Source of the DNA: a bacterium
Lineage (GTDB): Bacteria > Patescibacteriota > Minisyncoccia > Phycocordibacterales > Phycocordibacteraceae
NCBI GenBank assembly: GCA_023267755.1
Contig: JAHFMR010000005.1
Span: 1-46,350, forward strand
Reading direction: 5' to 3'
Length of the DNA stretch: 46,350 nucleotides
Below, one piece after another: positions 16,320 through 46,350 of the stretch. The position numbers and the translations under genes were made by a program. The notes beneath the pieces are model-generated. The model searched no databases. It worked only from the letters and a program-made list of their open reading frames with translations, and was not told where the DNA came from. How positions within the stretch are numbered: the first letter of the stretch is position 1; each line of letters opens with the position of its first letter.

Positions 16320-16393
16320 TGGTGCGGGATAGGAGAATCGAACTCCTGCCTACTGCTTGGGAAGCAGTCGTCCTACCACTAAACTAATCCCGC
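16320..16393 (-). tRNA. tRNA-Gly(CCC), CCA encoded
   Basis: GCGGGAT-TA-GTTT-AGTGGTA-GGAC, anticodon loop TTCCCAA, T-arm AGGAG-TTCGATT-CTCCT, 3' ACCA. Confidence 0.95.
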
Positions 16394-27332: not shown

Positions 27333-27399
27333 GCTGGTAATGACTAAATTGTATAAATAAAACACTCCTCTTTCTTATTGGTAAGTTTACTCCTCTCTA

Positions 27400-27423
27400 C
27401 AAAAAATGCGCTGTGGACAGCGT
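27400..27423 (-). terminator. short intrinsic terminator ending the long minus-strand gene string
   Basis: On the minus strand CGCTG-tcca-CAGCG is followed by a U6 run (plus-strand A run at 27401-27406), immediately after the DUF192 stop. Confidence 0.5.
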
Positions 27424-27890
27424 TATTGCGTAACGACTGGGAGATTTTTCAACAACAGTGGCGTACCGGTGGCGATAGAATGAGCGCGTGCGAAGCCCGC
27501 TGCAGTCTCTAGGACATATCGCGCTGGGGTACTTGGATAAAAGACATTTGGGTAGCTGGAGGTCGCGACATCCTGGGCGATATAGACCACGTGTCCTTGA
27601 GCGTCCAGCCAGAACATATCGAGCGGAACAAACGTATCCTTCATCCAGAAGCCATACTGGTCGTCTCTCGGAAAGACAAAAAGCATCCCGTAATCGCTCG
27701 GAATGCTCTCTCGCCCGCCAAGTCCACGCTCTCGTGCCTCTGGCATTGTCGCATAGTCTATCCTTAAGGACACGCCGCCGAAACTTGCAGCAGGATGTGA
27801 TGATGCTAAGAGCTCAAACCTCCAGAAAAGCCCACTCATCACCCCCACGACTGCGATACCAAGAAAACCGAGAATTTGATTCCTCGACAC
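27423..27890 (-). CDS. DUF192 domain protein with N-terminal membrane anchor
   Basis: 155 aa. GMLFVFPRDDQYGFWMKDTFVPLDMFWLDAQGHVVYI is typical of DUF192/COG1430. Confidence 0.8.
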   Translation of the reverse strand: MSRNQILGFLGIAVVGVMSGLFWRFELLASSHPAASFGGVSLRIDYATMPEARERGLGGRESIPSDYGMLFVFPRDDQYGFWMKDTFVPLDMFWLDAQGHVVYIAQDVATSSYPNVFYPSTPARYVLETAAGFARAHSIATGTPLLLKNLPVVTQ

Positions 27891-27895
27891 AGTTA

Positions 27896-28330
27896 TTATG
27901 CTTCCTTGATGTCTTTTACTTCTACGGTTACTTCCGGGATCCCTTCGCTACGAGTCGAAGCTTTGATGATTTCCTCTACTTTCTCCATCACTTGTTTCGG
28001 GCTGTATTCACTCTTCACCAGATACAGTACGGCTCCGAGACTGAGTCCTTTTTCTGCATCTTCTTGACCAGCGAGATTTGTAAGTAAAATGACCGGTATC
28101 TTCTTCAGATTTTCGTCCTCCTTAATCTTACGCAACACGTCAAAACCGCTCATTTTCGGCATCATAACGTCGAGGAGGATAAGAATCGGCTTTGGGTCCA
28201 TCTTCCCGAGCACCGCGAGTGCTTCTTCACCATCGCCGGCCATAGTAAGGTCGTGCCCGCCGAGACGGAATGCGCGCTCATACATACGGATCATCAAGGG
28301 ATCGTCTTCTGCAATAAAGAGTTTTGCCAT
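27896..28330 (-). CDS. stand-alone receiver-domain response regulator (no output domain)
   Basis: 144 aa. FIAEDDPLM, LILLDVMMPKMSGFDVL (phospho-Asp), PVILLTN. Confidence 0.9.
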   Translation of the reverse strand: MAKLFIAEDDPLMIRMYERAFRLGGHDLTMAGDGEEALAVLGKMDPKPILILLDVMMPKMSGFDVLRKIKEDENLKKIPVILLTNLAGQEDAEKGLSLGAVLYLVKSEYSPKQVMEKVEEIIKASTRSEGIPEVTVEVKDIKEA

Positions 28331-28383
28331 ACGATTTAGATTATACCATTAATTATACCCATGCGATTTATGTACTGAGTATA

Positions 28384-30693
28384 TCAGGACGCGATTGGCA
28401 CCGTAAAGACAAAGGTGCTCCCCTTGCCTAATTCGCTCTTCTCTAACCCTATCGTACCGCCCATGCTCGAGATTATAAGCCGTGAGATATACAGACCCAA
28501 CCCGGTGCTTTGGGTGACATCTCGCGCAAGCATCTGTTCTCCTGCTTGTTGGAATTTCCTGAAAAGGAGCGCCTGATTGTGTTCTGAGATGCCCGCTCCC
28601 GTATCAGTGACTCTCACTTGAATGAAATTCTCTGCTGCTGTAAGCGCAACAGTGATACTCCCCTCCTTGGTAAATTTCGCTGCATTCCCGATCAAATTGA
28701 CAAGAATCTGCTCGACCTTGTCCTTATCAGCATTCACCGCAGGCAACGGCGCAGTCGGTGGCACATAGACGAGCGCCAACCCTTTCTTGCTAATCATCTC
28801 TCTCAGATCCCGATCTACCTTAGCGACTACTTCGGCTATGTCGAATTTTTCCTTTTTAATCTCCACTCGTCCTTGCTCAAGGCGCGACGCTTCGAGGAAA
28901 TCATTAACGATGGAGATGAGTCGCACACTGGAGGTGCCGATATCTGTAAGCATTTCTTTCATATCTTTATCGACTATCTTATCCGCGTACATATCAAGAA
29001 TCATATCGGCATTGCCGCGAATAGCCGTTAGCGGCGTACGGAGTTCGTGAGAGGCTACTGCGAAGAATTCGTCGCGACTCCGCTCCATAACCTTCGCCTC
29101 GGTGATGTCTTCGACCAGGATTACGTACCCGATAGCCACTTCTGCAGACTGAGCCGTGTCATCCTTCGTAAGGATGGGGGTGCAGAAGACGCGAAGATAT
29201 TTCTTCCCATGAGAGATTTCCTTCAATTCAACCATCCTCTTGATTTCCAAACATTCCCGGCAGGAATGCGCCAGCGCATCCAGATTTGAGGTCACTCCCT
29301 TGAAGGAATCGACGATATCTGCTATGGAAGCGGGTTCTTCGGCCAATTCGAGTATGTTCAGAAGCGCCTCGTTCCTAACGAGAACCTTGTCATCGGTATC
29401 CGCGATAATGAACCCGAACGGCAGACTATTGATAGAAGCAAGGAGGCGCGCTTTCTCATTACTAAGCTCACGTGTCCTGATAACGACTATCTCTTCAACT
29501 TTCTTCTTCTCTCCCTCGATGTCTTCGAGAAGGTTGAGAATAGCTTTCTTCGAGCTCTCTACCTCGATAATCTGCTCCGATAACTGTGCTGTTTTTTCTT
29601 GTATCCTCTGTTCAAGCCCTGACCGAGCGTTTCGAAGATTTTCCGCCATTTCGTTAAATGCCTGTCCGAGAGTTCCTATCTCATCTTTCGTGTCAATATC
29701 GATCTTGGTATCTAAATTACCTTGACTGATGACCAGAGCGGCATTGGTTAATCTCCGTATCGGCCTCGAAATTGATCTTGTAATCAGCAACCCGCTTATT
29801 GTTACGAAAATCAAGATACCGAATCCGATTGGCAATGAGTTATACGCTATCGCGTATGCAGGCTTCATAGCTTCGTCATAATCGATACTCGCAATCAAAC
29901 AGACGCTATTTCTTGGTATCCATCTATGCAAGCCGATAACACTCGACCCCGCATAGCTCGTATCATGGAACCCATCGTGCTTTTTTAGACAATCGGTGAT
30001 GCCAGCTGAATAGACGTATTTCTGAAATTCTGTTCCTTCATTCTTTCTAAGTGTCGTAACCGCAAGGTTATATTTGTTGACGAGATACGTCTCTCCAGAG
30101 TCACCGAGACCAGCTCTTTCCGTCATCAAGTCTGAAATTGATTTCAAATTAATCCTCCCCGCAAGAATTGCGAATTCTTTACCGGATGCGTCGACAAACG
30201 GGGTTGCGAGCGTGGAAGATGGTTTGAGCGTAATCGAATCATAATAGAAATTTTCGAGATATGAATCCCCCTCTTTACTCTTATTGAAATAGTCCTCGCC
30301 AGACACGATATTGCCAACATGTGTAGTGTCCGTAGAGAAAAGTATCTTTCCCTGCAGGTCAATGATGAAAAGTTCGGTAAAATTACTCCCCGTCAAATGC
30401 TCCTGTAATATGTGATCGATAGAAATGTCCGACGTACTTTTAGTAGTAGAAAAGAGCTCTTTTGCGCTTGCGATAGACCAATCTTCCCTGGCGAGCCTCT
30501 GCAACTGACCGACGATGGAAGTGATGAAGGTGTTAAGCTGATCCTCTTTGATGACCACAACGCTCTCGAGCTGGGCCTTGACACGGTTCACTATGGCCTC
30601 TTTGGCAAAATGGTAACTAATCGACATATCGATCGCTACCGCGAACATAGCAATCAAAACTGTTATCAGTACTAATTTATGCCCTATCTTCAT
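28384..30693 (-). CDS. sensor histidine kinase: TM-dCache-TM-HAMP-coiled coil-PAS-HisKA-HATPase_c
   Basis: 769 aa. HAMP RPIRRLTNAALVISQGNLD...EIGTLGQAFNEMAENL, H-box FFAVASHELRTPLTAIRG, N box LVNLIGNAAKFT, G boxes DTGAGI and GLGLYISR. Confidence 0.95.
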   Translation of the reverse strand: MKIGHKLVLITVLIAMFAVAIDMSISYHFAKEAIVNRVKAQLESVVVIKEDQLNTFITSIVGQLQRLAREDWSIASAKELFSTTKSTSDISIDHILQEHLTGSNFTELFIIDLQGKILFSTDTTHVGNIVSGEDYFNKSKEGDSYLENFYYDSITLKPSSTLATPFVDASGKEFAILAGRINLKSISDLMTERAGLGDSGETYLVNKYNLAVTTLRKNEGTEFQKYVYSAGITDCLKKHDGFHDTSYAGSSVIGLHRWIPRNSVCLIASIDYDEAMKPAYAIAYNSLPIGFGILIFVTISGLLITRSISRPIRRLTNAALVISQGNLDTKIDIDTKDEIGTLGQAFNEMAENLRNARSGLEQRIQEKTAQLSEQIIEVESSKKAILNLLEDIEGEKKKVEEIVVIRTRELSNEKARLLASINSLPFGFIIADTDDKVLVRNEALLNILELAEEPASIADIVDSFKGVTSNLDALAHSCRECLEIKRMVELKEISHGKKYLRVFCTPILTKDDTAQSAEVAIGYVILVEDITEAKVMERSRDEFFAVASHELRTPLTAIRGNADMILDMYADKIVDKDMKEMLTDIGTSSVRLISIVNDFLEASRLEQGRVEIKKEKFDIAEVVAKVDRDLREMISKKGLALVYVPPTAPLPAVNADKDKVEQILVNLIGNAAKFTKEGSITVALTAAENFIQVRVTDTGAGISEHNQALLFRKFQQAGEQMLARDVTQSTGLGLYISRLIISSMGGTIGLEKSELGKGSTFVFTVPIAS

Positions 30694-31709
30694 TTATAGA
30701 TGGCGTTCAGAAATTCCATCGTGTACGCGCTACTCACATCGCTCTTATTCGTGATAATCTTCTGCTCAGAGAGCGTGTCTTGCACTTGTTCCCATTTTGT
30801 CTGTTCCATCCAACCGATGGAGGTATCTCCGGTATTAATAAGTGGGATAGAAGAGTGGAGCATATAGCTCTCGTGACTCTTGGTGCTCTTTAGTGCGTAA
30901 GCAAGTACGATGTCGACGGTTTCAGATTCGTTCTCAATCGCATATTTCCACCCTTCGATGGTTGCCTCGACGAATTTCTGAACCGTCGCCGGATTCTTTT
31001 GTATCGTATCTTCTCGTACAAACAACACATCAGCGTACATATTTGCGCCATAATTCGCCATCAGGATGGTATTCACCTCTTGTCCCGCCTCGACGACCAG
31101 TTGGGGCTCATTGATAACATACCCCGTTGAGACATCGGTAGTCCCATTTAGCAATTCCGTCGCGTCATATCCGATTGTTACCTCATTTATTTTTTTCTTA
31201 TCGATACCAAGCTTGTTTAACATAGTGGCGTAGAGGATGCCCACGTTGACCTCCGATCCGTCTGCTGCTCGTTCAATGCCAACCGTCTTGCCGATGAAAT
31301 CTTGCGGCTTCGTTATGTTATTCTTTTTGAGCGAGTAAGCGACGACAGGATTTATCTTATAGATAACCGCGACAGCCTTAATTGGTGCTCCTTTTGATCG
31401 AGCGATGATGAGTTCGTCAGCACCGGTGATGCCGAAATCTGCTTTACCATCCACCACGGCACTGATAGTGGGTTGTTCGAATGAGAACGGCTTGATATCT
31501 ACCGCGAGCCCCACTTTTTCATAGAACCCTTTATCCTTGGCGACATAATTCCCGGCAAATTGTGCCTGATGCAACCACTTCAAATTCAGCGTAACCGGGG
31601 TGAGAACAATCGAATTCTTGTCACTTGAGGACAGCCCTCCCCGCATATAGATGCCGCCGAGTGCGATGATACCGAGTGCGACCCCGATTGCTATTCTTTT
31701 TACGTTCAT
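30690..31709 (-). CDS. NMT1/THI5/SsuA-type periplasmic solute-binding protein, membrane/signal anchored
   Basis: 339 aa. LKWLHQAQFAGNYVAKDKGFYEKVGLAVDIKP...ADFGITGADELIIARSKGAPIKAV. ATGA overlaps at both ends. No permease or ATPase gene in the window. Confidence 0.85.
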   Translation of the reverse strand: MNVKRIAIGVALGIIALGGIYMRGGLSSSDKNSIVLTPVTLNLKWLHQAQFAGNYVAKDKGFYEKVGLAVDIKPFSFEQPTISAVVDGKADFGITGADELIIARSKGAPIKAVAVIYKINPVVAYSLKKNNITKPQDFIGKTVGIERAADGSEVNVGILYATMLNKLGIDKKKINEVTIGYDATELLNGTTDVSTGYVINEPQLVVEAGQEVNTILMANYGANMYADVLFVREDTIQKNPATVQKFVEATIEGWKYAIENESETVDIVLAYALKSTKSHESYMLHSSIPLINTGDTSIGWMEQTKWEQVQDTLSEQKIITNKSDVSSAYTMEFLNAIYK

Positions 31710-32233
31710 GGCGTATAACGTTGGTTGGTAAGCCTCCGGTTCTCTTCTTTTAATTCGATCATCTTCAGCTCCCGATCGATCATGAGCTGATTGAGTTTTT
31801 TAAGTTCCTTAATATTCTCATCTTTCTGTATCTCCGCCTCTTTTTCAGAAGTCACGTCTTTTGAAATGAAGAGGATGTATTTGAAATTCCCGTTCTTATC
31901 CTTAGCCGGAGCCAGACTACTATGGCACCAGTGCCCGGTTGATGTCCCCGGAACATGTTCCATATCAAATTCGCTCGATTCCCCTTCAAGAGCCTTCTTC
32001 ATACTTTCTTTTACCAGATCGTGATATTTCTCCTCAATGCAATCCATATATTTCCAGTGTTTGATTTCTTCATCGCTCTTATCAAGCAAGAAGTGTTCTT
32101 CGCGCGCACCCTTGTTCACTGAAACTAAATTGCCCTGCGCATCAAATAGCTTGATGCACAGCGGCGCGGTGTCAAGAAGCGTCTTGTAGAGATATTCGCT
32201 TCCTTCTTCTGCTGGTTCTTGGTTTTGGTTCAT
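31706..32233 (-). CDS. cytoplasmic PAS-domain protein with C-terminal coiled coil
   Basis: 175 aa. YKTLLDTAPLCIKLFDAQGNLVSVN...FISKDVTSEKEAE, then a heptad-like KELKKLNQLMIDRELKMIELKEE. Confidence 0.75.
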   Translation of the reverse strand: MNQNQEPAEEGSEYLYKTLLDTAPLCIKLFDAQGNLVSVNKGAREEHFLLDKSDEEIKHWKYMDCIEEKYHDLVKESMKKALEGESSEFDMEHVPGTSTGHWCHSSLAPAKDKNGNFKYILFISKDVTSEKEAEIQKDENIKELKKLNQLMIDRELKMIELKEENRRLTNQRYTP

Positions 32234-32234
32234 A

Positions 32235-33722: not shown

Positions 33723-33744
33723 ACGCCTCTTAGTATATCACCGG

Positions 33745-37814: not shown

Positions 37815-37837
37815 AGGAATTACCTACTTCAAAAGGC

Positions 37838-38218: not shown

Positions 38219-38239
38219 AACACTATTGTACCACTCGGA

Positions 38240-39277: not shown

Positions 39278-39289
39278 ATTTTATCACAC

Positions 39290-42200
39290 CTAAGGAAGTG
39301 TTGTGATGTCGTTTGGAGGTACTGTCGGTTCAGGCGGCGGCTCGGTGGGTGGTTCAATTAGCGTAACGATCTGCTCTTCCGGCACTGTTGTTGGTGGAGA
39401 TGCTTGGTCGGTGGTTGAAGCGGTAGTGTCTACTGCAGGAGTCGTACTCGCGCTCTGTACCTCTTCGGGCGGAGTGGTGGTGCCAATCGGAAGCGTTGAG
39501 ACATCGGCCACAGGAACAGTCTCTGACACTACTGTCCGCGAGGTGAACTCCTTAGAATCTTTAATCGCGAGCGCTATCCAGTTGAAGGAGATATCTGCTG
39601 GTGCTTTCTTATTGAGGACGATCGTGAAGCCGTGGACACTCTTCTTGGTGACGATGAATTGTATATTCGCATCAAAGAGCTTCGAGATGTCGGCATCTGT
39701 GGTGGAGGCATCATTGAACGACATCGAGGAGGTAACGATAGGCTGCTCGATATAGTCACGACCGAAGGTGACGTCGACCGACTGTGCGCCTGCCTTAATC
39801 ACCGCGCTCCCGCCCGTGTCAGTGGTGAAGTACGGGCGGCCGAAGAAGGCGGTGTCGCTCATAATATTTATCGTTGTGCTCGCAGAGCCGAGATCAGTAA
39901 CCTGGAGTCCGCCGGTGAAGCTCGCGGCGCCCGAGACCGCGAGAGCTCCGGTAGAGACCTTCTGGGCAACGACTTCTCCAGCGAAGTAGGCATTGCCGGT
40001 GGTGTCGAAGCTGATGACGATATCGCTTGCGTCAGCAACTACCAGCGTAGTCGAAGCAATTGCATCAGTGGTACTCGCATCTTGATGAGTCGTGCTGGCG
40101 AATGCATCGAGTGCGGAAGCAAGCGCGGTCGAGGTTGCGAGCGAGAGTGTTTGAGTTGCTTTCACTCCGTGCACCACGAGCTTGTCGCCGACGATACTAA
40201 GGGCGAGCGAGCCAACCGTGCTTCCCGAGATGGTATCGGTAGTGAGCGCGCTCGTGTGCACCGCGTTCGCGATAAACTCTGGACTGATGACCGAGGAAAC
40301 GGCGCTTATCTTATCGGTAAAGATCTCTGACGGCGCAGAGACTCCCTTCCCACGCTCTTCTTTCAGTGCCGCGAGGAAGCCAAGTACTTCTTGGTCGTGG
40401 CTCTGGATGACTGCAGTAGCGCCACTGCCGACGAGTCCATTGCCGCTGTCAGTCGAGGTCGCCACATCGAGACCCACCTGCGCGCCGAGAGTAGTGAGCG
40501 CATTTGTGTGTGTGCTCTTCCAGTCGCTCATCGCGAGATCGACCGACTGGCCTGTGTAGTCGATCATATTCACGAACATCATAATCGTCGTACACTTCCG
40601 CTCCATCTGATACTCGCTCGCAGGACAATCGATTAGCTTAGCCGGATCAACCGACTCAAGCGCCTTGCCGAGGACTCTCCCCGAGAGCGTCGCCTTCATC
40701 GCATAGCCAGGGACGCTCGCGGCGGTCAGATAATCGCCCGTGCGGATCATCCCATTCTCAGTAGAGACCAAGACCGGGACGCGGCCGATAAGCGCGATGG
40801 GGTATGAATTCTCGGTATAGGCGCCCGCGACGAAGCCCGGATCGGTGGAGACAACGCCGAGCATATCTGGCTGGTATTGATACTTAGAGGGCATCACGCC
40901 GTGATTATTCTGCGGGTCGATAGATACCACCATTCCCTTCTGCAGCTCCACCTGCGAAGTGTAACGCTCTGCCAAGTCGGCGCCGCTCGTGTTAATGGTA
41001 CCGCCAGTCTGTGCGAAGATGTCCCCCCCGGACGTAACTCTGAACACTGAGAGACCATCGGCCTGGAGATTAATAAGATCCTTGTCCTTAGTCACCTTAT
41101 ATTCATAGAGCACCGGGGTCGCTACCGGTCTCTGCGGGAAAGCCATTGCTGAACCGCCGTTATTGTTCCAGGTGTCGGTGTAGATGCCGCTGTAGGATGG
41201 GAAGGTTCTGCGGAAATTGAAGTTAATCTGCAGCCACGTATCGGTTGCCGCAGGATTTATTAATCCACCGGAGTTCGACACTTCTCGTGTTGTAGAAGTA
41301 GCGAGTGCAGCCTGCGTCGGAGCAGTCTTCACTTCTGCGGAGATGCCTCCTAGAGCGGTGCTGAACATATTGCTTCTCCACATAAGAGTCGAGTTGGAAT
41401 CAAGCTTGGTGCCCACCGACGAGAGGTCAAACTGCTCCGACTTATAGATGCCGCTCGGCACCCAACCAGCGTCGTAGGTCATCACCGCATTTGAGGTGGT
41501 CGTCGTCGCTGCGCCCATAATAACAACGAACTTGCCATCAGAGCGCTGGAAGGTGACCGAGCCGCTATTAGTACCGTTGCCGACGCTTGGTCCGGCGGTA
41601 TTAAGACCGATGTTTCCCAATACCCCTGTTGAACCGGTATTCCCCGCTTGTTCATTATAAATATTGGTAACGGGCTGTGGAGCAAACAGAGCTCCGCCAC
41701 CACCAGCGGTGAGAAGCCATGTGCCATCGGGTCGTGGAATTGCCCCTGCACCAAGTCCTACTCCTACAGCGGTAACAAGGGGCGCACCGGCAGGCATGGT
41801 GAGTGCATTGGTAAACGGATTATAAATTTGTGTGGCAAGCAGACCAACACATGTAAGCGTTGTCGCACTCCCTCTCACAATGACCCACTGGCCGTCCTTC
41901 CTCTGAAAAGCGAAAGCTCCGGGGCCATTACCAGTGATGGCCGGAGCGCCCGTAGCGGTAAATACCATCGTATAAGGATTGAAGAGGTTGGTGACAGTAC
42001 TAAGCGTGCCGCACATGGTACCTTGATTGACTGCTGACATTCCAGGAATGAAGAGGTAGGTGCCGTCGGGTCGCGGTATGGACATTGAACCTGGACCAAC
42101 CACCTGCGTAGGAGTGGGTCCCATCGTCATTGTATTATTCACAGGATCGTAGATTGAGGTCTGAGCCGTACCACCACCATGCACAATGAGTACACGCCCG

Positions 42201-45200
42201 TTCGGCAATGGTATGGCGGACGCCCCTATACCGGCACCGGTCGTACCAGACACGCTCGCGAGCGACGGGCCAGCAACGAAAGTGTCCCCGACTGGATCAT
42301 AGATATTGGTGGTGCTGGTGGCTGACGCTCCTGCGCCCATTACAACCAGGAAAGTGCCGTTCGGACGTTTGAACGCGAAACCTCCTATACCGAGCGCGAC
42401 CGTCGGCACCTGCGGCGCAGCCGTACGAAGTGTGGTGGTAGAAGTGTTCTCGTCATAGATTTGGGAATTCAGTGTCGGATTACCGGAAATAATCACGAAT
42501 TGTCCGTTTGGACGCTTCATCACCACGGTCGTAGAGGCAGTAGCGACTTGCAACGGCGAGGAACTCGCGAACGCTCCGTTATAAAAGGTAGCGTTTGTTG
42601 TATTTATCGTAGAGCCCCATCCCACGCCTGCAGAAAGCGCGAGCGCGTTTGCGTTATTCTTATCGTTAGAAATATTCACCATCACCGGCCCCGACGCGGT
42701 CGCCGTGCTTGAAGAGACCGTGTTGCCGAAATCAAATTGGCTCCGGTGAAGCACTGCGCCGTTGTCCACAGTGATGTCATAGAGCACCGGATCGGCGTTC
42801 ACGCGGCGGTATCGCGTCATACTTCCTTTTCTGATCCCCCACTCTTGGTCGAGGAAACGCGGGAGCTCACGCTGGAAGGTAAATTTGAATTGAATACGGT
42901 TATCAGCGGTGGTTGTAGCGTTAATCAAATCACCGCTATTTGCGATATTGCGATAGGTACCAGAAGAACATGCCGCCGGACTCGTAACTGTCCTCACTTG
43001 AGCTTGTATCGTCCCTTCAGTATTTTGCGTCCAATTAAGTGTCGAGTTCGGGGAGAGATTTGTGTTGTCGATACACTCGCTTTCATAATAGGCATCCTGC
43101 GTGTTGGCACGATTAGTACCCGTGACAAAGTTCATATCGTATATATCAAGACCTGTGCCGCCGCCTCGGGCAATGGCATATCGCCCATCGGGAGTCATAA
43201 AGGCAACCATACCGGCTCCGGCTGCTCCCGAAAGAGCCAGTGACCCTCCTGGATTAGTAAACACGGGGTTTTGTGCTCCTACTGTCGCACCGGGCATACC
43301 GGCTCCGGCATCAATTACATTCACTACGGTCGTGTTTGCCGTAATGAGCGTGTATTTGCCATCTTGTCGCCAGACCGCTTGAGCTCCGTCGGCGAGTGCC
43401 GACGAAGGACCTAGGCCAGCACCTGATAGAGCACTACTGAAAGCTCCAGCACCGTTCGGCGTTGTCGTGCCGACTGGGTTATATACGAAAGAGGTAGTAA
43501 TCGCACCGGGTATGGTGAGGAACATGCCGTCGGCACGCCGTATAGAGAATGCCCCTGCCGCAATAGTTGCTGGTGCTGTGGGACCAGTTGTTAAGGTGTT
43601 GTTATAGGGGTTATAGATTTGTGTCGCCGTACCATTGCCGATGTAAATGAGGAATGTTCCGTCGTCTCTCTGAACAGCATGGGAGCCCACTCCGATTGAG
43701 CTTATGGTGGGACCGGCGGTGAATGTGTTCGCGGTCGGGTCATAGATGAAGGTCACGGTATTGCCCGCCCACCAAACAAGATATTTGCCGTCTGGACGGA
43801 GCAATGCGTTCGTACCGCTCGTTGATGGGCAGTTCGTGGGAAGTCCCGCTGTCGGTGCCGCCACTGCGGGAGCTATGCCATAGGGATCAATAATAGTATT
43901 CACGTTGCAGTTTGGGTTTCCTGCACTTGTTATCACCAGATATTTACCGTCAGGACGCTTCAGAGAAAGAGCGCCAGATTGCGGGGTCTGTCCCAAAGTA
44001 GAATTCGGAAGTGTCGTCACAGTGTTTGAATATCCATTCCACACTGAAACGGTGGTGCCGCCGCCGTTTATAATGACGTACTTGCCGTCACTCCGCATAA
44101 TGACGTGCCCCCCAGCACCCATTGTTGCGAAGGTGGCGGTCGAGCTTGCTGCGATAGAACCGTCTCCCGGGATTACCCCGTCTTGAATCGTGATGTAGCC
44201 GTTTGTCGTGGTGGTAGTCGCGAGCGTTGACGCGCCGCCGATACCTCCCTGGAAGTCTGCTGTGGTAGTTTTAACCGTGTCAGAGGTCGCTGCGTTTATC
44301 GTGAGTCCGCCGCTGTTCGCGACCGTGAACTTATCAACGCCTGCTTGTTGGAGTGCAAGGAGTCCACCCGCACCGCGCTGATCGATGATCGCCGCCGCGA
44401 TGACGGCCGAGGTGCTCGAAGCCGAGAGTGTAGCCAGTGGGCTTGAGGTGCCGACACCGAGGCGCTTGTTCGTGGCATCCCAGAAGAAGTTTGCATTGTC
44501 GCCGCTAAACGCAGCGCCGTTCGCAAATTGAACTGCTCCGGTATTCCCTTGAGCGCTCGCGGTGCCGGAGTTGATGCAGGTGCCGTTGATCGCGTAGCAG
44601 ACCGCTGCACCGCTCGAGATATTGAGACCGCCACCAGTGCTGTAGAAGGTCGTCGTAGCCGCCGCGAAGTTCGCGATACTGTTCACCGAGAATATGGTTC
44701 CTGGCGAGGTGGTACCGATACCTACATTACCCGTCGAGGTGATGGTCATGCGAGTAGTATCATTCGTTTCAAGAGAAATATCGTGAAGCGATTGTGTCCC
44801 AATGTCTAAAGTTGTTACACCTGTCGTGTGCATACCAAAATGACCGGTGACTGTATTATTTGATACTGTCAAGACGGAAGCACCCGTTGTTGAATTAACT
44901 GCAAGGAGCGACATCGGGCTCGTTGTACCGACACCAATGGAACCATTCGTCGTGAAGTTGCCCGTACTTGTCGTGGTGGCATTGCCATTGACGACAAAAC
45001 CGTTCTTAAAGTACCAAGCGAGATTGTCGGTAACAGTAGATGAGGCGGTGTAGTAGTTGGTGCCGCCGAAGGAGGTGTAGACGAGATTGGGGACACCGGC
45101 GCCACCTGTTCCGTTAATGGTAACTGGCGATGTTCCGAGTACGTTGAAACCTGAGCAGGAAACCGTCCCGGAACAAGTCACCGATGTTGTGGCCACCCCT

Positions 45201-46350
45201 GCCACGCCGGCGGCGCCGGTTGAGTAGAGGAGGTTGGAGGAGGAAGGCTGGGTGGTGGTGGCGAGGCCGGTGTACGCGATAGTGGAGTTCCCGCTACCAC
45301 CCACGAGTGCGCCAAGTGCCGACCCGACGAAAGGTCCAGTGAAGGTGAGAGTGGTAGTACCAACACTGGTGAGATTGTTCGTGCCGTTGCCGTAGAGAAG
45401 CTGAGAGGAGGTGAATGTGGCAACGCCAGTACCGCCACGTGCGACACCGAGCGTGCCGGAAGTGAATCCAGAGATATCGGTGGAGGTTGCGATGAAGGCG
45501 AGGCCGTTTGTCGTGTTGCTCCAGCCAAGTACTCGCCCGCCAGTGATGCCTGCGCCGAACATCGTGGAAGTGGCGATGAATGAAGGGGCGGTTGAGCCAG
45601 GGGCGGCGTTGGCGAGAACACCGTTCGCTGCCGTGCCCCACGACGTGGCATTGCCCGAACTGGTAACGACGCCAGTGAGGTTTGCGTTGGTAGTGACAGT
45701 CGCCGCGTTCCCACCGATGGAGAGCGAGGAGGTGGCGGTGGTGACGAGGGCGCCAGCATTGTTGGTATAGAGGATCTGGTTGGCGGAGAAGGAGGTGACG
45801 CCGGTGCCGCCTCTGGCGATGCTGAGGGTGCCGGTGGTGAACTGGGAGATGTCAGTGGAGGTGGCGATAAAGGCGAGGCCGTTTGTGGCGTTGCTCCAGC
45901 CGAGGACCTGGCCGCCGGTACCGGTGCCATACAGGGTGCTCGTGGCGAGCGGTGCAGCAGTGTTGCCGTTCGCCACTGAACCGAGAACGCCAGCGTTCAT
46001 AGTGCCCCACGACGTGGCGTTGCCAGAGCTGGTAACCACGCCAGTGAGATTGGCGTTGGTAGTGACGGTCGCCGCGTTTCCCCCGATGGAGAGCGAGGAG
46101 GTGGCCACTTGAGCGAAGGCGGTGCCGGCTGCATCAGTATAGAGGAGACGATTGCCGGTGAGGGAGGAGAGACCGGTACCGCCGTTTGCAATCGCCGCGA
46201 CACCAGTGATGTTCGCTGCCGTGCCCCCGATGTTGAGCGTGCTGGTGGAGAGTGCGGTGACGTTGCCGGCGGCTCCTGTGGAGTTGCCGAGGATGGTGTT
46301 GGCCGCTATCTGTGGAAGCTGAGAAAGGGAGAGTGCGTTGGTGGCAATGC
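39290..46350 (-). CDS. giant tail-fibre-like surface protein, 5'-truncated by the window edge (>2,350 aa)
   Basis: I translated 46109-46348 by hand. The frame stays open to the window end, so the track start at 46108 (a GTG) is internal. Contains 123-aa GGTG repeats, VGIGTTSP motifs, two 7-blade propeller-like arrays and a Pro/Thr-rich tail. Confidence 0.9.
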   Translation of the reverse strand, partial: IATNALSLSQLPQIAANTILGNSTGAAGNVTALSTSTLNIGGTAANITGVAAIANGGTGLSSLTGNRLLYTDAAGTAFAQVATSSLSIGGNAATVTTNANLTGVVTSSGNATSWGTMNAGVLGSVANGNTAAPLATSTLYGTGTGGQVLGWSNATNGLAFIATSTDISQFTTGTLSIARGGTGVTSFSANQILYTNNAGALVTTATSSLSIGGNAATVTTNANLTGVVTSSGNATSWGTAANGVLANAAPGSTAPSFIATSTMFGAGITGGRVLGWSNTTNGLAFIATSTDISGFTSGTLGVARGGTGVATFTSSQLLYGNGTNNLTSVGTTTLTFTGPFVGSALGALVGGSGNSTIAYTGLATTTQPSSSNLLYSTGAAGVAGVATTSVTCSGTVSCSGFNVLGTSPVTINGTGGAGVPNLVYTSFGGTNYYTASSTVTDNLAWYFKNGFVVNGNATTTSTGNFTTNGSIGVGTTSPMSLLAVNSTTGASVLTVSNNTVTGHFGMHTTGVTTLDIGTQSLHDISLETNDTTRMTITSTGNVGIGTTSPGTIFSVNSIANFAAATTTFYSTGGGLNISSGAAVCYAINGTCINSGTASAQGNTGAVQFANGAAFSGDNANFFWDATNKRLGVGTSSPLATLSASSTSAVIAAAIIDQRGAGGLLALQQAGVDKFTVANSGGLTINAATSDTVKTTTADFQGGIGGASTLATTTTTNGYITIQDGVIPGDGSIAASSTATFATMGAGGHVIMRSDGKYVIINGGGTTVSVWNGYSNTVTTLPNSTLGQTPQSGALSLKRPDGKYLVITSAGNPNCNVNTIIDPYGIAPAVAAPTAGLPTNCPSTSGTNALLRPDGKYLVWWAGNTVTFIYDPTANTFTAGPTISSIGVGSHAVQRDDGTFLIYIGNGTATQIYNPYNNTLTTGPTAPATIAAGAFSIRRADGMFLTIPGAITTSFVYNPVGTTTPNGAGAFSSALSGAGLGPSSALADGAQAVWRQDGKYTLITANTTVVNVIDAGAGMPGATVGAQNPVFTNPGGSLALSGAAGAGMVAFMTPDGRYAIARGGGTGLDIYDMNFVTGTNRANTQDAYYESECIDNTNLSPNSTLNWTQNTEGTIQAQVRTVTSPAACSSGTYRNIANSGDLINATTTADNRIQFKFTFQRELPRFLDQEWGIRKGSMTRYRRVNADPVLYDITVDNGAVLHRSQFDFGNTVSSSTATASGPVMVNISNDKNNANALALSAGVGWGSTINTTNATFYNGAFASSSPLQVATASTTVVMKRPNGQFVIISGNPTLNSQIYDENTSTTTLRTAAPQVPTVALGIGGFAFKRPNGTFLVVMGAGASATSTTNIYDPVGDTFVAGPSLASVSGTTGAGIGASAIPLPNGRVLIVHGGGTAQTSIYDPVNNTMTMGPTPTQVVGPGSMSIPRPDGTYLFIPGMSAVNQGTMCGTLSTVTNLFNPYTMVFTATGAPAITGNGPGAFAFQRKDGQWVIVRGSATTLTCVGLLATQIYNPFTNALTMPAGAPLVTAVGVGLGAGAIPRPDGTWLLTAGGGGALFAPQPVTNIYNEQAGNTGSTGVLGNIGLNTAGPSVGNGTNSGSVTFQRSDGKFVVIMGAATTTTSNAVMTYDAGWVPSGIYKSEQFDLSSVGTKLDSNSTLMWRSNMFSTALGGISAEVKTAPTQAALATSTTREVSNSGGLINPAATDTWLQINFNFRRTFPSYSGIYTDTWNNNGGSAMAFPQRPVATPVLYEYKVTKDKDLINLQADGLSVFRVTSGGDIFAQTGGTINTSGADLAERYTSQVELQKGMVVSIDPQNNHGVMPSKYQYQPDMLGVVSTDPGFVAGAYTENSYPIALIGRVPVLVSTENGMIRTGDYLTAASVPGYAMKATLSGRVLGKALESVDPAKLIDCPASEYQMERKCTTIMMFVNMIDYTGQSVDLAMSDWKSTHTNALTTLGAQVGLDVATSTDSGNGLVGSGATAVIQSHDQEVLGFLAALKEERGKGVSAPSEIFTDKISAVSSVISPEFIANAVHTSALTTDTISGSTVGSLALSIVGDKLVVHGVKATQTLSLATSTALASALDAFASTTHQDASTTDAIASTTLVVADASDIVISFDTTGNAYFAGEVVAQKVSTGALAVSGAASFTGGLQVTDLGSASTTINIMSDTAFFGRPYFTTDTGGSAVIKAGAQSVDVTFGRDYIEQPIVTSSMSFNDASTTDADISKLFDANIQFIVTKKSVHGFTIVLNKKAPADISFNWIALAIKDSKEFTSRTVVSETVPVADVSTLPIGTTTPPEEVQSASTTPAVDTTASTTDQASPPTTVPEEQIVTLIEPPTEPPPEPTVPPNDITTLP
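45371..46350. repeat. 369-bp (123-codon) tandem repeats at the 5' end of the giant gene
   Basis: Units at about 45371-45739 and 45740-46108, plus a more divergent unit running to the window edge. The same landmark (gtgccccacgacgtggc) occurs at 45633 and 46002, giving a period of 369. Confidence 0.85.

What the first reader, a model, noticed from the sequence alone, without database searches (positions are those of the whole stretch)
27423..46350. Near-gapless minus-strand gene string of at least 19 kb coupling a giant tail-fibre-like surface protein, wall-enzyme-like proteins and a fragmented sensory module (candidate cell-contact sensing/remodelling system)
Seen: eleven consecutive minus-strand ORFs run from the window edge to the hairpin plus U-run at 27400-27423. 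Junction gaps are 12, 21, 23, -4, 22, 1, -4, -4, 53 and 5 nt, and I found no convincing internal terminator. In order they are: a giant repeat protein, a beta-lactamase-like hydrolase, a 126-aa single-TM protein and a 1,166-aa secreted Ig-like protein. Next come a thioredoxin-fold protein without CxxC, a multi-TM double-Cache protein without transmitter and a PAS/coiled-coil protein. The string ends with a solute-binding protein without any ABC partner, a dCache-HAMP-PAS histidine kinase, a receiver-only regulator and DUF192. Established: each domain family is common on its own. Inference: the tight packing suggests co-expression of an adhesin-like fibre with envelope enzymes and a sensor that has no DNA-binding output. 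That would imply a post-transcriptional or protein-level response. I know of no described system with this composition, and for a likely episymbiotic small-genome bacterium a host-contact apparatus is a plausible role.
Basis: partly seen in the sequence, partly recalled or inferred. Interest (0 to 1): 0.78.

Follow-up and report, generated by a model that had tools for sequence, protein, structure and literature searches.

The report
Conserved split-sensor signalling and surface-protein locus
This is a real gene cluster of small-genome Patescibacteria, kept in the same order in at least 16 other genomes, that joins surface proteins to a two-component signalling system whose sensor parts are separate proteins and whose regulator cannot bind DNA; what it controls is still unknown.

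Summary
Eleven minus-strand ORFs run from 27423 to the window edge, with exactly the reported spacings and nearly all the reported domains.

The window comes from a Patescibacteria (CPR) genome close to Candidatus Kaiserbacteria. A five-gene core recurs in the same order in 16 other contigs, whether the search starts from the Cache protein or from the Ig protein:
- a ~1,200-aa secreted Ig-like protein
- a cysteine-free ResA-like thioredoxin-fold protein
- a transmitter-less 6TM + double-Cache sensor
- a WalK/PhoR-type histidine kinase
- one or two receiver-only regulators

The Cache protein is the sensor half of a split kinase. Rare relatives carry the same 6TM + dCache module fused to HAMP-HisKA-HATPase. 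The slot between it and the kinase holds different stand-alone sensors in different lineages: five solute-binding families, PAS, FIST, ODP, NIT-HAMP and dCache-GAF.

The giant protein ends in a phage-appendage-like barrel and an H-type-lectin-like domain.

Three things are not supported. The 19 kb is not one obligatory transcript. DUF192 does not belong to the module. A host-contact role cannot be tested here.

I found no published description. I rate it a new variant of two-component signalling, of moderate to good interest.

The parts
39290..46350 (-). Giant secreted or surface protein. It is 5'-truncated by the window edge (at least 2,352 aa). It has Thr/Gly/Ala/Ser-rich N-terminal repeats with a recurring 'GGTG' motif, a weakly duplicated central part, a conserved C-terminal unit and a Pro/Thr-rich tail.
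   Evidence: Open frame to the window edge. No Pfam or NCBIfam family at E<=0.01. The L009/L034 contig holds an orthologue at 61-62% identity over residues 606-2286, and part of that orthologue also aligns to window residues 766-1235 at 29% (weak internal duplication). The N-terminal repeats recur in L034 and L038. The C-terminal 526 aa have 183 homologues, mostly unnamed Patescibacteria proteins.
40556..40975 (-). Phage-appendage-like beta-barrel domain of the giant protein (residues ~1792-1931).
   Evidence: AF2 pLDDT >90 across this stretch. Foldseek BFVD hits to 'preneck appendage protein' and tail or tropism proteins, E 9e-11 to 1e-8, TMt up to 0.63. tblastn hits to jumbo-phage virion structural proteins at 34-37% identity, E ~1e-6. 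PHROG 22593, E 5e-5. The domain is also found in S8 peptidases.
39569..39814 (-). H-type-lectin-like domain of the giant protein (residues ~2179-2260), followed by a Pro/Thr-rich C-terminal tail.
   Evidence: Pfam H_lectin 13.8 bits, E 0.064, spanning the whole model but below the cut-off. Foldseek PDB hits to SLL-2, Helix agglutinins and discoidin, and to tailspike and pyocin-fibre tips, TMt 0.55-0.57, E 0.009-0.08. Homologue P0165 is named 'H-type lectin domain-containing protein' and P0177 carries PF09458.
38240..39277 (-). Membrane-anchored serine hydrolase of the class-A beta-lactamase fold, a likely peptidoglycan peptidase.
   Evidence: Pfam Beta-lactamase2, 122 bits. NCBIfam bla_class_A scores only 64.9 against a cut-off of 200. 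The SxxK and SDN motifs are conserved, and the third motif reads HKF[GA]. Homologues lie beside the module in L003, L008, L009, L010, L029 and L030. A paralogue sits at 3814-4896.
37838..38218 (-). 126-aa N-terminally anchored small protein of unknown function, with a conserved extracytoplasmic motif (LPxxExPTxATVSDPxKLKDQxFFxxAxxGDKVL).
   Evidence: No Pfam, NCBIfam or PHROG hit. One TM helix. Orthologues lie in or beside the module in L003, L005, L009, L013, L030 (three copies) and L039.
34314..37814 (-). 1,166-aa secreted multi-Ig-like protein. A core member of the module.
   Evidence: Signal peptide. Pfam Big_13, Big_6, Glucodextran_B and Big_12. Orthologues carry CarboxypepD_reg near the C-terminus. 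A short amphipathic C-terminal tail is conserved. It lies upstream of the Trx gene in every locus with enough flank, at 34-63% identity.
33745..34317 (-). Membrane-anchored thioredoxin-fold protein of the ResA/TlpA type with no active-site cysteines. A core member, with an ATGA overlap to the Ig-like gene.
   Evidence: Pfam AhpC-TSA 53 bits, Redoxin 38 bits. NCBIfam ResA 67.6 against a cut-off of 170. Every one of the 13 aligned sequences (window plus 12 orthologues) reads FW[ST]TWN-like where CxxC would be, and 12 have no Cys at all. The -4 overlap with the Ig gene occurs in 6 loci.
32235..33722 (-). Transmitter-less membrane sensor: a six-helix MASE3-like N-terminal domain, a stalk helix, an extracytoplasmic double-Cache domain and a C-terminal TM helix with a 9-residue tail. 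A core member.
   Evidence: Pfam dCache_3 and sCache_3_3. AF2 model with pLDDT 80. Foldseek hits to the dCache ligand-binding domains of PctA, DctB, LuxQ and Tlp3. More than 120 homologues at E<1e-134, nearly all ~495-500 aa (a few are truncated), none fused to an output. The N-terminal domain profile finds only 289 proteins among 1.84 billion, and two of them are full kinases.
31706..32233 (-). Stand-alone cytoplasmic PAS protein with a C-terminal coiled-coil-like tail. Occupies the variable slot.
   Evidence: Pfam PAS_4 and PAS_9. NCBIfam sensory_box. No TM helix. Clear homologues only in L011 (53%) and partial ones in L008/L037.
30690..31709 (-). Orphan NMT1/SsuA-type solute-binding protein with an N-terminal anchor or signal. 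Occupies the variable slot. Has -4 overlaps with both neighbours.
   Evidence: Pfam NMT1 166 bits. NCBIfam SsuA_fam scores 73 against a cut-off of 163.5. No ABC permease or ATPase gene in the window. The same family occupies the slot in L012, and other SBP families occupy it elsewhere.
28384..30693 (-). Sensor histidine kinase: TM, dCache_1, TM, HAMP, coiled coil/PAS, HisKA, HATPase_c. A core member.
   Evidence: Pfam. H-box FFAVASHELRTPL. Best NCBIfam models are WalK at 213 bits (cut-off 725), PnpS at 208 and PhoR at 161, aligned from residue ~410. The transmitter is 43-74% identical in the related loci while the sensor end varies.
28331..28383 (-). AT-rich 53-nt gap before the regulator gene, with two perfect TATAAT hexamers at 28352-28357 and 28340-28345. 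The second reads TGGTATAAT and ends 9 nt before the ATG.
   Evidence: Read directly from the sequence. The scan also reports a 9/12 promoter-like site at 28407-28378. In related loci the kinase-regulator spacing is -20 to 59 nt, so a separate promoter here would be specific to this genome.
27896..28330 (-). Receiver-only response regulator (144 aa) with a conserved ~20-residue C-terminal tail. A core member.
   Evidence: Pfam Response_reg only. The acidic pocket, phospho-acceptor Asp (LLDVMMP), Thr and Lys are present. Orthologues are 61-84% identical, and the tail STRxEGIPEVxVEVKD is conserved. The receiver is most like those of OmpR/PhoB/RpaB.
27423..27890 (-). DUF192 protein with an N-terminal hydrophobic segment. 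Last gene of the string in this genome only; not part of the conserved module.
   Evidence: Pfam DUF192 94.7 bits. No homologue in any related locus.
27409..27422 (-). Short GC-rich hairpin (5 bp, 4-nt loop) followed by CATTTTTTGT. A possible weak terminator.
   Evidence: One search lists it. The fold of 27366-27440 is no better than shuffles (z = -0.04).

Best explanation
The locus is a lineage-specific envelope locus of Patescibacteria (Parcubacteria/Paceibacteria type, close to Kaiserbacteria). It has two linked parts.

Part 1, surface genes:
- a giant protein whose C-terminal part looks like the receptor-binding end of a phage appendage (beta-barrel plus H-type-lectin-like domain)
- a class-A-beta-lactamase-fold serine hydrolase
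- a small anchored protein
- a ~1,200-aa secreted multi-Ig protein, translationally coupled to a redox-dead ResA-like thioredoxin-fold protein

Part 2, a split, multi-input two-component system:
- one WalK/PhoR-type kinase (dCache-HAMP-PAS-DHp-CA)
- sensor proteins that have no output of their own: an invariant 6TM + double-Cache membrane sensor, which is the detached sensor half of a kinase, plus a lineage-variable set. In this genome the variable set is a cytoplasmic PAS protein and an orphan NMT1-type solute-binding protein.

Proposed mechanism (inferred):
- Extracytoplasmic ligands bind the solute-binding protein and the Cache domains.
- The signals reach the kinase through three kinds of contact: periplasmic (SBP to dCache, as in LuxP-LuxQ), intramembrane (Cache sensor to kinase TM helices) and cytoplasmic (PAS to PAS).
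- The kinase phosphorylates the receiver-only regulator.
- The regulator has no DNA-binding domain, so it must act by protein-protein contact, probably through its conserved C-terminal tail.
- The most likely targets are envelope and surface functions such as those encoded alongside.

Shown here: the domain architectures, the conservation of order, the split-kinase fusion evidence, the loss of CxxC and the absence of a DNA-binding output.
Inferred: all physical contacts, the ligands and the output.
For: Taxon: relatives are all Patescibacteria.

Conservation of order: Ig, Trx, Cache, (variable slot), HK, RR(-RR) in L002-L006, L008-L010, L012-L014, L016, L029/L030, L035, L039 and L040. The set was reached from the Cache protein and independently from the Ig protein. 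Neighbourhoods are mapped.

Coupling signals: -4 overlaps Ig/Trx in 6 loci, and PAS/SBP/HK in the window.

Split-kinase evidence:
- A profile of the 6TM domain finds 289 proteins in 1.84 billion, and almost all of the full-length hits have the ~480-540-aa Cache-only architecture.
- P0297 and P0388 add HAMP-HisKA-HATPase_c.
- P0388 sits in a non-CPR, LPS-type contig.

Cache fold: AF2 pLDDT 80, Foldseek to PctA, DctB and LuxQ.

Variable slot of output-less sensors: NMT1, Peripla_BP_4, ABC_sub_bind, Phosphonate-bd and Peripla_BP_6 SBPs, plus FIST, ODP, PAS, NIT-HAMP, dCache-GAF and an FNR-like protein.

Kinase and regulators:
- The kinase is catalytically canonical and WalK/PhoR-like.
- The regulators have intact phospho-acceptor sites and no output domain.
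- The window-type regulator is 61-84% identical across lineages, with a conserved tail.

Trx: CxxC is lost in all 13 aligned sequences.

Giant protein C-terminus.

Established knowledge: SBPs are known to stimulate signalling receptors as well as transporters (abstract of PMC10443332).
Against: - No transcript, interaction or phenotype data exist.
- Background synteny is appreciable among these genomes. LepA and MurJ also lie near the module in L005, L009, L013 and the window. Gene order alone therefore does not prove that the surface genes and the kinase work together.
- Opposite-strand insertions in L002 and L014, and inverted beta-lactamase-fold genes in L003 and L030, show that the cluster is not one operon.
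- The kinase has its own dCache domain and could work without the Cache-only protein.
- The Cache gene has moved to the far side of the regulators in L006.
- In this window the MASE3 assignment of the 6TM domain is not significant on the protein itself.
- Only one window of this genome is available, so a DNA-binding regulator encoded elsewhere cannot be excluded.
Confidence: 0.5

Rival explanations
1. Two independent units sit side by side. A surface-protein and wall-enzyme island and an ordinary two-component system are neighbours only because these related small genomes inherited the arrangement. There is no functional link between them.
For: LepA and MurJ also keep their position near the module in several loci, so regional synteny is high. 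The cluster is broken by opposite-strand genes between Trx and Cache in L002 and L014, and by x220-type genes in L009. Tight gene spacing is genome-wide.
Against: The Ig-Trx pair lies directly upstream of the Cache gene (15-66 nt) in most loci, across lineages in which the proteins have diverged to 34-50% identity. Other flanking genes differ between loci. When the Cache gene moved in L006 it stayed inside the cluster. Further surface-protein genes follow the regulators in six loci.
Confidence: 0.28
2. The Ig-like protein, the Cys-less Trx protein and the 126-aa protein are not targets. They are extracytoplasmic accessory subunits of the sensor complex, comparable to YycH/YycI with WalK or LpqB with MtrB. 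They would report the state of the wall or of the cell surface to the kinase.
For: All three are secreted or N-terminally anchored and sit next to the sensor genes in nearly every locus. The Trx protein has lost its chemistry but is conserved, which suits a binding role. The Ig protein family keeps a short amphipathic C-terminal tail that could dock to a partner. The kinase transmitter is closest to WalK.
Against: No sequence similarity to YycH, YycI or LpqB was found in any product. A 1,166-aa multi-Ig protein is far larger than any known kinase accessory protein. No interaction data exist.
Confidence: 0.15
3. The AT-richer PAS-SBP-HK-RR block is a recent, unrelated insertion, so the apparent system is accidental.
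For: GC is 0.43-0.49 and GC3 is 0.50-0.55 for these four genes, against GC3 of 0.67-0.74 for housekeeping genes. The kinase is only 49% identical to that of the closest genome, L002 (where the Cache protein is 77% identical), but 74% identical over its transmitter to that of L003.
Against: A kinase and a regulator occupy the same position in all related loci. The regulator is 80% identical to that of L002. The data fit exchange of the sensor/kinase cassette within a conserved frame, not an unrelated insertion.
Confidence: 0.05
4. The output-less sensor genes are decaying fragments of broken kinase genes.
For: Full-length fused versions exist elsewhere.
Against: More than 120 homologues, nearly all of uniform ~495-500-aa length, 44-77% identical, with many invariant residues in both the TM and Cache parts. 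The frames are intact in all loci.
Confidence: 0.02

Closest known systems
WalK/WalR (YycG/YycF) with the accessory proteins YycH and YycI in Firmicutes (also SpdC-WalK in S. aureus)
   Same: The kinase transmitter (PAS-DHp-CA) scores best against the WalK model. The kinase is surrounded by membrane-anchored extracytoplasmic proteins and lies next to wall-enzyme-like genes. The concept is the same: membrane partners modulate a kinase that governs the envelope.
   Different: The score of 213 bits is far below the WalK cut-off of 725. The sensor domain is dCache_1. The regulator lacks the OmpR-type DNA-binding domain. No YycH, YycI or Abi-domain homologue is present.
Kinases that depend on a solute-binding protein: LuxP-LuxQ, TorT-TorS
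   Same: An orphan SBP gene with no ABC transporter sits directly upstream of, and overlaps, a kinase gene with a periplasmic double-PAS/Cache-type domain. The LuxQ periplasmic domain is among the structural matches of the Cache fold. TorS and LuxQ are among the NCBIfam hits of the transmitter.
   Different: The SBP family here is NMT1/SsuA, and in relatives it is any of four other families. The kinase is not a hybrid kinase. A second, transmitter-less Cache protein and cytoplasmic stand-alone sensors are added.
MASE3-type and dCache-type sensor histidine kinases (one-piece versions, e.g. P0388 and P0297)
   Same: Same N-terminal six-helix domain and dCache_3 domain in the same order.
   Different: In the Patescibacteria family the protein stops nine residues after the last TM helix. 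HAMP, DHp and CA are missing, and a separate kinase gene lies nearby.
The resABCDE operon of Bacillus subtilis (ResA thiol-disulfide oxidoreductase next to the ResD-ResE two-component system). This operon arrangement is recalled from my own knowledge.
   Same: A membrane-anchored ResA-like thioredoxin-fold gene lies in the same cluster as a TM-sensor-HAMP-PAS kinase and an OmpR-type receiver.
   Different: The CxxC is absent in every orthologue. There are no ResB/ResC cytochrome c biogenesis genes. The regulator has no DNA-binding domain. The ResA model score is below its cut-off.
Phage tail fibres, tailspikes, preneck appendages and R-type pyocin fibres with lectin-like tips
   Same: The C-terminal unit of the giant protein matches phage appendage proteins in fold and weakly in sequence, and it has an H-type-lectin-like domain of the kind found at fibre tips.
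   Different: The locus has no phage genes. The N-terminal repeats have no phage match. The lectin domain is followed by a Pro/Thr-rich tail. The protein is chromosomal and conserved in related bacteria.

Membership tests
Classical two-component system (HisKA-type kinase + receiver) | Kinase with a HisKA phospho-acceptor domain (H-box) and an HATPase_c catalytic domain | tested here: met
   Pfam HisKA 62 bits and HATPase_c 83.5 bits. H-box SHELRTPL is present.
Classical two-component system (HisKA-type kinase + receiver) | Adjacent receiver domain with the acidic pocket, phospho-acceptor Asp, and conserved Thr and Lys | tested here: met
   Pfam Response_reg 74 bits. The residues are conserved in the alignment of 30 receivers.
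Classical two-component system (HisKA-type kinase + receiver) | Phosphotransfer from this kinase to this regulator | not testable with these tools
   Needs an in vitro phosphotransfer assay.
WalK/WalR cell-wall two-component system | Kinase reaches the NCBIfam WalK equivalog cut-off | tested here: not met
   213 bits against a cut-off of 725.
WalK/WalR cell-wall two-component system | OmpR-family regulator with a winged-helix DNA-binding domain | tested here: not met
   Receiver only, 144 aa. The same holds in all related loci.
WalK/WalR cell-wall two-component system | YycH/YycI accessory proteins in the operon | tested here: not met
   No such Pfam or NCBIfam family in any of the eleven products.
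Double-Cache (dCache) extracytoplasmic sensor domains | Profile match above the curated cut-off, and a dCache fold between two TM segments | tested here: met
   dCache_3 59 bits (cut-off 25.7) and sCache_3_3 63.5 bits. AF2 model plus Foldseek hits to PctA, DctB, LuxQ and Tlp3.
MASE3 membrane-associated sensor domain | Pfam PF17159 match to the N-terminal TM domain | tested here: inconclusive
   Not reported for the window protein at E<=0.01. The fused relative P0388 reaches 32.5 bits (cut-off 31), while P0297 reaches 23.6 bits.
ResA/TlpA/DsbE extracytoplasmic thiol-disulfide oxidoreductases | Thioredoxin fold with an N-terminal membrane anchor | tested here: met
   AhpC-TSA 53 bits and Redoxin 38 bits. 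One N-terminal TM helix.
ResA/TlpA/DsbE extracytoplasmic thiol-disulfide oxidoreductases | CxxC active site | tested here: not met
   The window protein has no cysteine. None of the 13 aligned sequences has CxxC.
Class A beta-lactamases | Reaches the NCBIfam class A cut-off | tested here: not met
   64.9 bits against a cut-off of 200. The protein is a member only of the broader Pfam Beta-lactamase2 family at 122 bits.
Class A beta-lactamases | SxxK, SDN and KTG motifs | tested here: inconclusive
   SxxK (SFLK) and SDN are conserved. The third motif reads HKFA/HKFG rather than KTG.
SBP-dependent sensor kinases (LuxPQ/TorTS type) | SBP gene next to a kinase gene with no cognate ABC permease or ATPase | tested here: met
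   The window has no ABC transporter component. The same arrangement, with other SBP families, occurs in L005/L029, L008, L010-L013, L015 and L030.
SBP-dependent sensor kinases (LuxPQ/TorTS type) | Direct binding of the SBP to the kinase periplasmic domain | not testable with these tools
   Needs multimer modelling with an interface read-out, or biochemistry.
H-type lectin domain (PF09458) | Profile match above the cut-off | tested here: not met
   13.8 bits against a cut-off of 24, E 0.064, although the match spans the whole model.
H-type lectin domain (PF09458) | H-type lectin fold | tested here: inconclusive
   Foldseek hits to SLL-2, Helix agglutinins and discoidin, TMt 0.55-0.57, E 0.009-0.09. 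Local pLDDT is 86-97.
Phage tail-fibre / appendage proteins | Fold or sequence similarity to virion appendage proteins | tested here: met
   BFVD hits at E 9e-11 to 1e-8 for a ~160-residue barrel, and tblastn hits to jumbo-phage virion proteins. This applies to the C-terminal unit only; the N-terminal 450 aa have no phage match.
DUF192 (COG1430) | Pfam PF02643 above the cut-off | tested here: met
   94.7 bits against a cut-off of 27. The gene is not conserved with the module.

The most novel reading that the evidence does not exclude
The locus would be a Patescibacteria-specific partner- or surface-sensing apparatus. A lectin-tipped, phage-fibre-like adhesin and a wall-spanning multi-Ig protein, docked through its C-terminal tail to the redox-dead thioredoxin-fold protein, would report contact or surface chemistry to the transmitter-less Cache sensor. 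That sensor would gate a WalK-like kinase together with plug-in chemical sensors that are swapped between lineages. The receiver-only regulator would then change wall remodelling or attachment directly at the protein level, without transcription.
Probability: 0.12. Interest if true: 0.85.

Novelty: new variant of a known kind. Interest (0 to 1): 0.58.

Why it matters
Patescibacteria have tiny genomes and few regulators, and many are thought to live attached to other cells. How they sense their surroundings is essentially unknown.

This locus is one of the few signalling systems they keep, and it is kept across several candidate lineages (Kaiser-, Giovannoni-, Lloyd- and Portnoybacteria, Minisyncoccia/Paceibacterota).

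It also shows an unusual design:
- one conserved kinase and regulator
- an invariant detached membrane sensor
- a slot where stand-alone sensor proteins of about ten different kinds are exchanged
- an output with no DNA-binding domain

If the parts work together, this gives a concrete set of proteins to test for ligand sensing, for post-transcriptional control of the envelope, and for the role of giant lectin-tipped surface proteins in these organisms. It would also be a natural example of how a modular kinase can be rewired by swapping separate sensor subunits.

Tried and rejected
- Pfam, NCBIfam and PDB sequence searches on the giant protein found nothing significant. Splitting it into five segments gave only sub-threshold hints.
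- Tandem Repeats Finder found no DNA repeats in the giant gene. A self-BLAST printed no internal pairs, so the weak internal duplication rests only on the L009 comparison.
- The N-terminal 450 aa have no match in the phage collection.
- The PDB fold search of the full Cache protein was dominated by the dCache domain and says nothing about the six-helix domain. The profile search answered that question instead.
- A nine-sequence Ig alignment was too divergent for a locus scan. A five-sequence alignment worked.
- Promoter and terminator scans are at chance level and cannot define transcription units.
- Seven literature searches found no description of this cluster. A paper on heliorhodopsins near kinases in monoderms, Patescibacteria included, is only a loose parallel.
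- Pseudogene fragments: rejected because of the uniform length and conservation.
- Prophage or phage-derived island: rejected because there are no phage genes apart from the fibre-like domain.
- DUF192 and the ribonucleotide reductase as members: rejected because they are absent from all related loci.
- The 'Candidatus Saccharibacteria' labels on several third-party assemblies were not taken at face value. The named relatives are all of the Parcubacteria type.

Full report

Yes. The ORF list shows ten complete minus-strand ORFs between 27423 and 39277. An eleventh starts at 39290 and stays open to the window edge, at least 2,352 codons.

A short hairpin followed by a T-run lies at 27409-27422. 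It has only five base pairs, and the region folds no better than shuffled sequence (z = -0.04). Promoter-like and terminator-like counts over 27-46 kb equal the shuffle expectation. These scans therefore neither support nor exclude internal signals.

Tight spacing is not special to this string. The TPR protein, MurJ and LepA genes further along have gaps of 25 and -4. Packing by itself says little.

**2. What the eleven products are**

| Product | Size | Finding |
|---|---|---|
| DUF192 | 155 aa | Pfam DUF192 |
| Response regulator | 144 aa | Receiver domain only |
| Histidine kinase | 769 aa | dCache_1-HAMP-HisKA-HATPase_c, canonical H-box. The PAS between HAMP and HisKA shows up through alignment to the WalK, PnpS and PhoR models from residue ~410. 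|
| Solute-binding protein | 339 aa | NMT1/SsuA type |
| PAS protein | 175 aa | Soluble, PAS_4 |
| Cache protein | 495 aa | Six N-terminal TM helices, dCache_3/sCache_3, one C-terminal TM helix, no transmitter |
| Trx-fold protein | 190 aa | Membrane-anchored AhpC/TSA-Redoxin fold, closest to ResA/StoA/DsbE, no cysteine |
| Ig-like protein | 1,166 aa | Signal peptide plus Ig-like domains |
| Small protein | 126 aa | One TM helix, no family |
| Beta-lactamase-fold protein | 345 aa | Anchored Beta-lactamase2 protein. It keeps SxxK and SDN but scores far below the class A beta-lactamase cut-off. |
| Giant protein | ≥2,352 aa | No significant profile hit |

No ABC-transporter component is encoded anywhere in the window.

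**3. Where the window comes from**

All relatives of the Cache protein are Patescibacteria. The closest is a Candidatus Kaiserbacteria MAG at 77% identity. Others are labelled Minisyncoccia, Giovannonibacteria, Lloydbacteria, Portnoybacteria and Paceibacterota. Several third-party assemblies carry the label 'Saccharibacteria'; I do not rely on it. The rest of the window holds ordinary housekeeping genes.

**4. Is the neighbourhood conserved?**

- Loci reached from the Cache protein were mapped with the window's proteins.
- Two further loci came with pre-computed Pfam annotation.
- An independent scan that started from the Ig-like protein found three new contigs.
- All of those again carry the whole set.

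In 16 contigs other than the window, the order is: Ig-like protein, Trx-fold protein, Cache protein, a variable stretch, kinase, one or two receiver-only regulators. The contigs are L002-L006, L008-L010, L012-L014, L016, L030, L035, L039 and L040. L029 is nearly the same as L005.

| Core protein | Identity to the window protein |
|---|---|
| Ig-like protein | 34-63% |
| Trx-fold protein | 36-67% |
| Cache protein | 47-77% |
| Kinase transmitter | 43-74% |
| Window-type regulator | 61-84% |

The ATGA overlap between the Ig and Trx genes recurs in six loci.

Upstream, a large surface protein that shares the window giant's C-terminal unit occurs in L003/L038, L004/L036, L008/L037, L009/L034 and L029. 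The beta-lactamase-fold gene and the 126-aa protein occur in several loci.

DUF192 and the ribonucleotide reductase do not recur. They are not part of the module.

**5. Limits of the conservation argument**

- Regional synteny among these genomes is appreciable. LepA and MurJ lie close to the module in the window, L005, L009 and L013.
- The cluster is also not one obligatory operon. An opposite-strand PaaX-like gene separates Trx and Cache in L002.
- x220-type genes sit there in L009 and L014.
- The beta-lactamase-fold gene is inverted in L003 and L030.
- A toxin-antitoxin pair is inserted in L030.
- The Cache gene lies after the regulators in L006.

I therefore treat the locus as at least two units: a surface unit ending with Ig-Trx, and a sensory unit starting with Cache.

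**6. The Cache-only protein is the detached sensor half of a kinase**

- The family is very uniform. More than 120 homologues at E<1e-134 were found, and nearly all are ~495-500 aa (a few are truncated).
- None is fused to an output, and those that carry a name are from Patescibacteria.
- An AlphaFold model built on 45 sequences (pLDDT 80) shows six membrane helices, a long stalk helix, a double-Cache domain and a last TM helix.
- The Cache part matches the ligand-binding domains of PctA, DctB, LuxQ and Tlp3.
- A profile of the six-helix domain alone, run against 1.84 billion representative proteins, finds only 289 proteins.
- Nearly all the full-length hits have the same 480-540-aa architecture.
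- Two exceptions, P0297 (788 aa) and P0388 (767 aa), continue into HAMP-HisKA-HATPase_c.
- P0388 also gives a just-significant MASE3 match. It lies in a contig with LPS and polysaccharide-export genes, so it is not from a CPR organism.

This is classical fusion ('Rosetta-stone') evidence that the module signals to a kinase transmitter. In the Patescibacteria the transmitter is supplied in trans by the neighbouring kinase.

**7. The variable slot**

Between the Cache gene and the kinase gene, different lineages carry different stand-alone sensor proteins. None of them has an output domain.

- This window: PAS + NMT1-type SBP.
- Other SBP families: Peripla_BP_4, ABC_sub_bind, Phosphonate-bd and Peripla_BP_6.
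- Other sensor types: FIST, an ODP di-iron protein, NIT-HAMP, dCache_1-GAF, longer PAS proteins and an FNR-like oxidoreductase.

The N-terminal sensor end of the kinase also varies, while its transmitter is conserved.

In the window this part is AT-richer. GC is 0.43-0.49 and GC3 is 0.50-0.55, against GC3 of 0.67-0.74 in housekeeping genes. The kinase is less like that of the closest genome, L002 (49%), than like that of the more distant L003 (74% over the transmitter). The simplest reading is exchange of sensor/kinase cassettes within a fixed frame, not an unrelated insertion.

**8. Kinase and regulators**

The kinase transmitter is of the WalK/PhoR/PnpS kind but reaches no equivalog cut-off.

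The regulators are OmpR/PhoB/RpaB-like receivers without the winged-helix domain. Two types exist:
- The window type, about 140-150 aa. It is as conserved as LepA and carries a conserved C-terminal tail, STRxEGIPEVxVEVKD.
- A second, shorter type that the window lacks.

Both keep the phospho-acceptor Asp, Thr and Lys. The output must therefore be by protein contact or by phosphate-sink behaviour, unless a DNA-binding regulator is encoded elsewhere in the genome. That cannot be checked from one window.

The 53-nt gap before the regulator gene has two perfect TATAAT hexamers. One reads TGGTATAAT and ends 9 nt before the ATG, and no Shine-Dalgarno sequence is evident. A separate, possibly leaderless, transcript for the regulator and DUF192 is plausible in this genome. 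Related loci have much tighter kinase-regulator junctions.

**9. The surface genes**

*Trx-fold protein.* It has lost the CxxC in all 13 aligned sequences (window plus 12 orthologues), and 12 of them have no cysteine at all. It is a conserved, redox-dead binding protein rather than an oxidoreductase.

*Ig-like protein.* All members have a signal peptide and a short conserved amphipathic C-terminal tail.

*Giant protein.* Its C-terminal 526 residues have 183 homologues, mostly unnamed Patescibacteria proteins. The first sub-domain also occurs in S8 peptidases. The AlphaFold model (pLDDT 73 overall, above 90 in the two folded domains) gives two results:
- A ~160-residue barrel matches phage 'preneck appendage', tropism-determinant and tail proteins (E down to 9e-11 in BFVD). 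It also matches jumbo-phage virion proteins by sequence.
- A C-terminal domain resembles H-type lectins and the tips of tailspikes and pyocin fibres. A sub-threshold Pfam H_lectin match agrees with this.

'Tail-fibre-like' is thus justified for the C-terminal unit only. The N-terminal repeats have no phage match.

**10. Most likely mechanism**

I read the sensory unit as one multi-input two-component system.
- Ligands bound by the orphan SBP and by the two Cache domains, together with a cytoplasmic cue read by the PAS protein, converge on one kinase.
- The contacts would be periplasmic, intramembrane and PAS-PAS.
- The kinase phosphorylates a receiver-only regulator that acts on a protein target.

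That SBPs can stimulate signalling receptors as well as transporters is established (abstract of PMC10443332).

The architectures, the fusion evidence and the conservation are shown. The contacts, the ligands and the target are inferred.

The link to the surface unit rests on conserved adjacency alone, and I give it less weight. Three readings remain open: the surface proteins are targets, they are accessory sensor subunits, or they are merely neighbours.

**11. Comparison with known systems, and novelty**

| Known system | How this locus compares |
|---|---|
| WalK with YycH/YycI | Works like it. Fails the membership tests: score below cut-off, no DNA-binding regulator, no YycH/YycI. |
| LuxP-LuxQ / TorT-TorS | Resembles them in using an orphan SBP. 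|
| One-piece MASE3/dCache kinases | The Cache protein is a split version of them. |
| Bacillus resABCDE | Echoes it in pairing a ResA-like protein with a kinase, but the chemistry and the cytochrome genes are gone. |

Seven literature searches found no description of this cluster.

I classify it as a new variant of a known kind. The components are familiar. New are the conserved combination, the detached invariant sensor, the exchangeable sensor slot and the output without DNA binding.

**12. Verdict**

The conserved, fragmented sensory module with a non-transcriptional output is well supported.
- The single 19-kb operon and the membership of DUF192 are not supported.
- The host-contact role is untested.
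- Interest: 0.58.

Noticed in passing
window 23734-24396 (+); also L003, L004, L006, L009, L014: A 220-aa IS200/REP-associated-tyrosine-transposase-like protein (Pfam Y1_Tnp, sub-threshold; GC 0.43) has homologues inside or right next to the module in five other loci, at only 32-36% identity. The homologues keep the HUH motif (NHFH/NHYH). The window copy reads DNFH, so it has lost the first histidine. Its repeated association with the module is unexplained.
   Followed up: partly
window 24441-24784 (+): Bacterial RNase P RNA class A (117.7 bits), immediately downstream of the transposase-like gene.
   Followed up: no
window 28340-28357 (-): Two perfect TATAAT hexamers lie in the 53-nt gap before the regulator gene. 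The second reads TGGTATAAT and ends 9 nt before the ATG, with no obvious Shine-Dalgarno sequence. This suggests a possible leaderless transcript for the regulator and DUF192.
   Followed up: partly
window 2330-3796 (+) and 3814-4896 (+): A YkuD (L,D-transpeptidase) + Peptidase_S11 fusion protein is followed by a second Beta-lactamase2 paralogue of the one in the module. This is a second wall-enzyme pair in the same window.
   Followed up: no
window 27896-28330 (-) and orthologues: The receiver-only regulator family keeps a conserved C-terminal tail (STRxEGIPEVxVEVKD). In some lineages a long Pro-rich extension follows it. Many loci carry a second, shorter receiver-only regulator that this window lacks.
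   Followed up: partly
window 34314-34370 (-) and orthologues: The ~1,200-aa Ig-like proteins end in a conserved amphipathic tail of about 15 residues (e.g. GFLGFLKGIITYLHYGL). It could be a docking or membrane-association peptide.
   Followed up: partly
L005/L029, L006, L013, L014, L030, downstream of the regulators: Six related loci continue after the regulators with further secreted proteins: a ~450-aa family with a poly-Gly stretch, and several 200-570-aa proteins with faint Big_13 or cohesin hits. These genes are absent from the window.
   Followed up: partly
window 21208-23577 (-): A 789-aa protein with about 12-14 TM helices and C-terminal TPR repeats lies next to MurJ. It may be an envelope glycan or wall assembly protein. 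The TM part has no specific family.
   Followed up: no
window 28384-30693 (-) compared with L002 and L003: Kinase identity is out of line with the rest of the locus. It is 49% to the closest genome but 74% (transmitter) to a more distant one. Together with the lower GC of the PAS-SBP-HK-RR block, this suggests exchange of sensor/kinase cassettes between lineages.
   Followed up: partly
window 5088-5554, 13925-14383, 16320-16393: Six tRNA genes (Glu, Ser, Val, Phe, Arg, Gly). There are also a class II ribonucleotide reductase with an ATP-cone (24945-27365), an Hsp20 gene (12310-12801) and a PrsW protease gene (11596-12306).
   Followed up: no
L030 5484-6007: A ParE/YafQ-type toxin-antitoxin pair is inserted between the Ig-like gene and the Trx gene of a related locus.
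   Followed up: no
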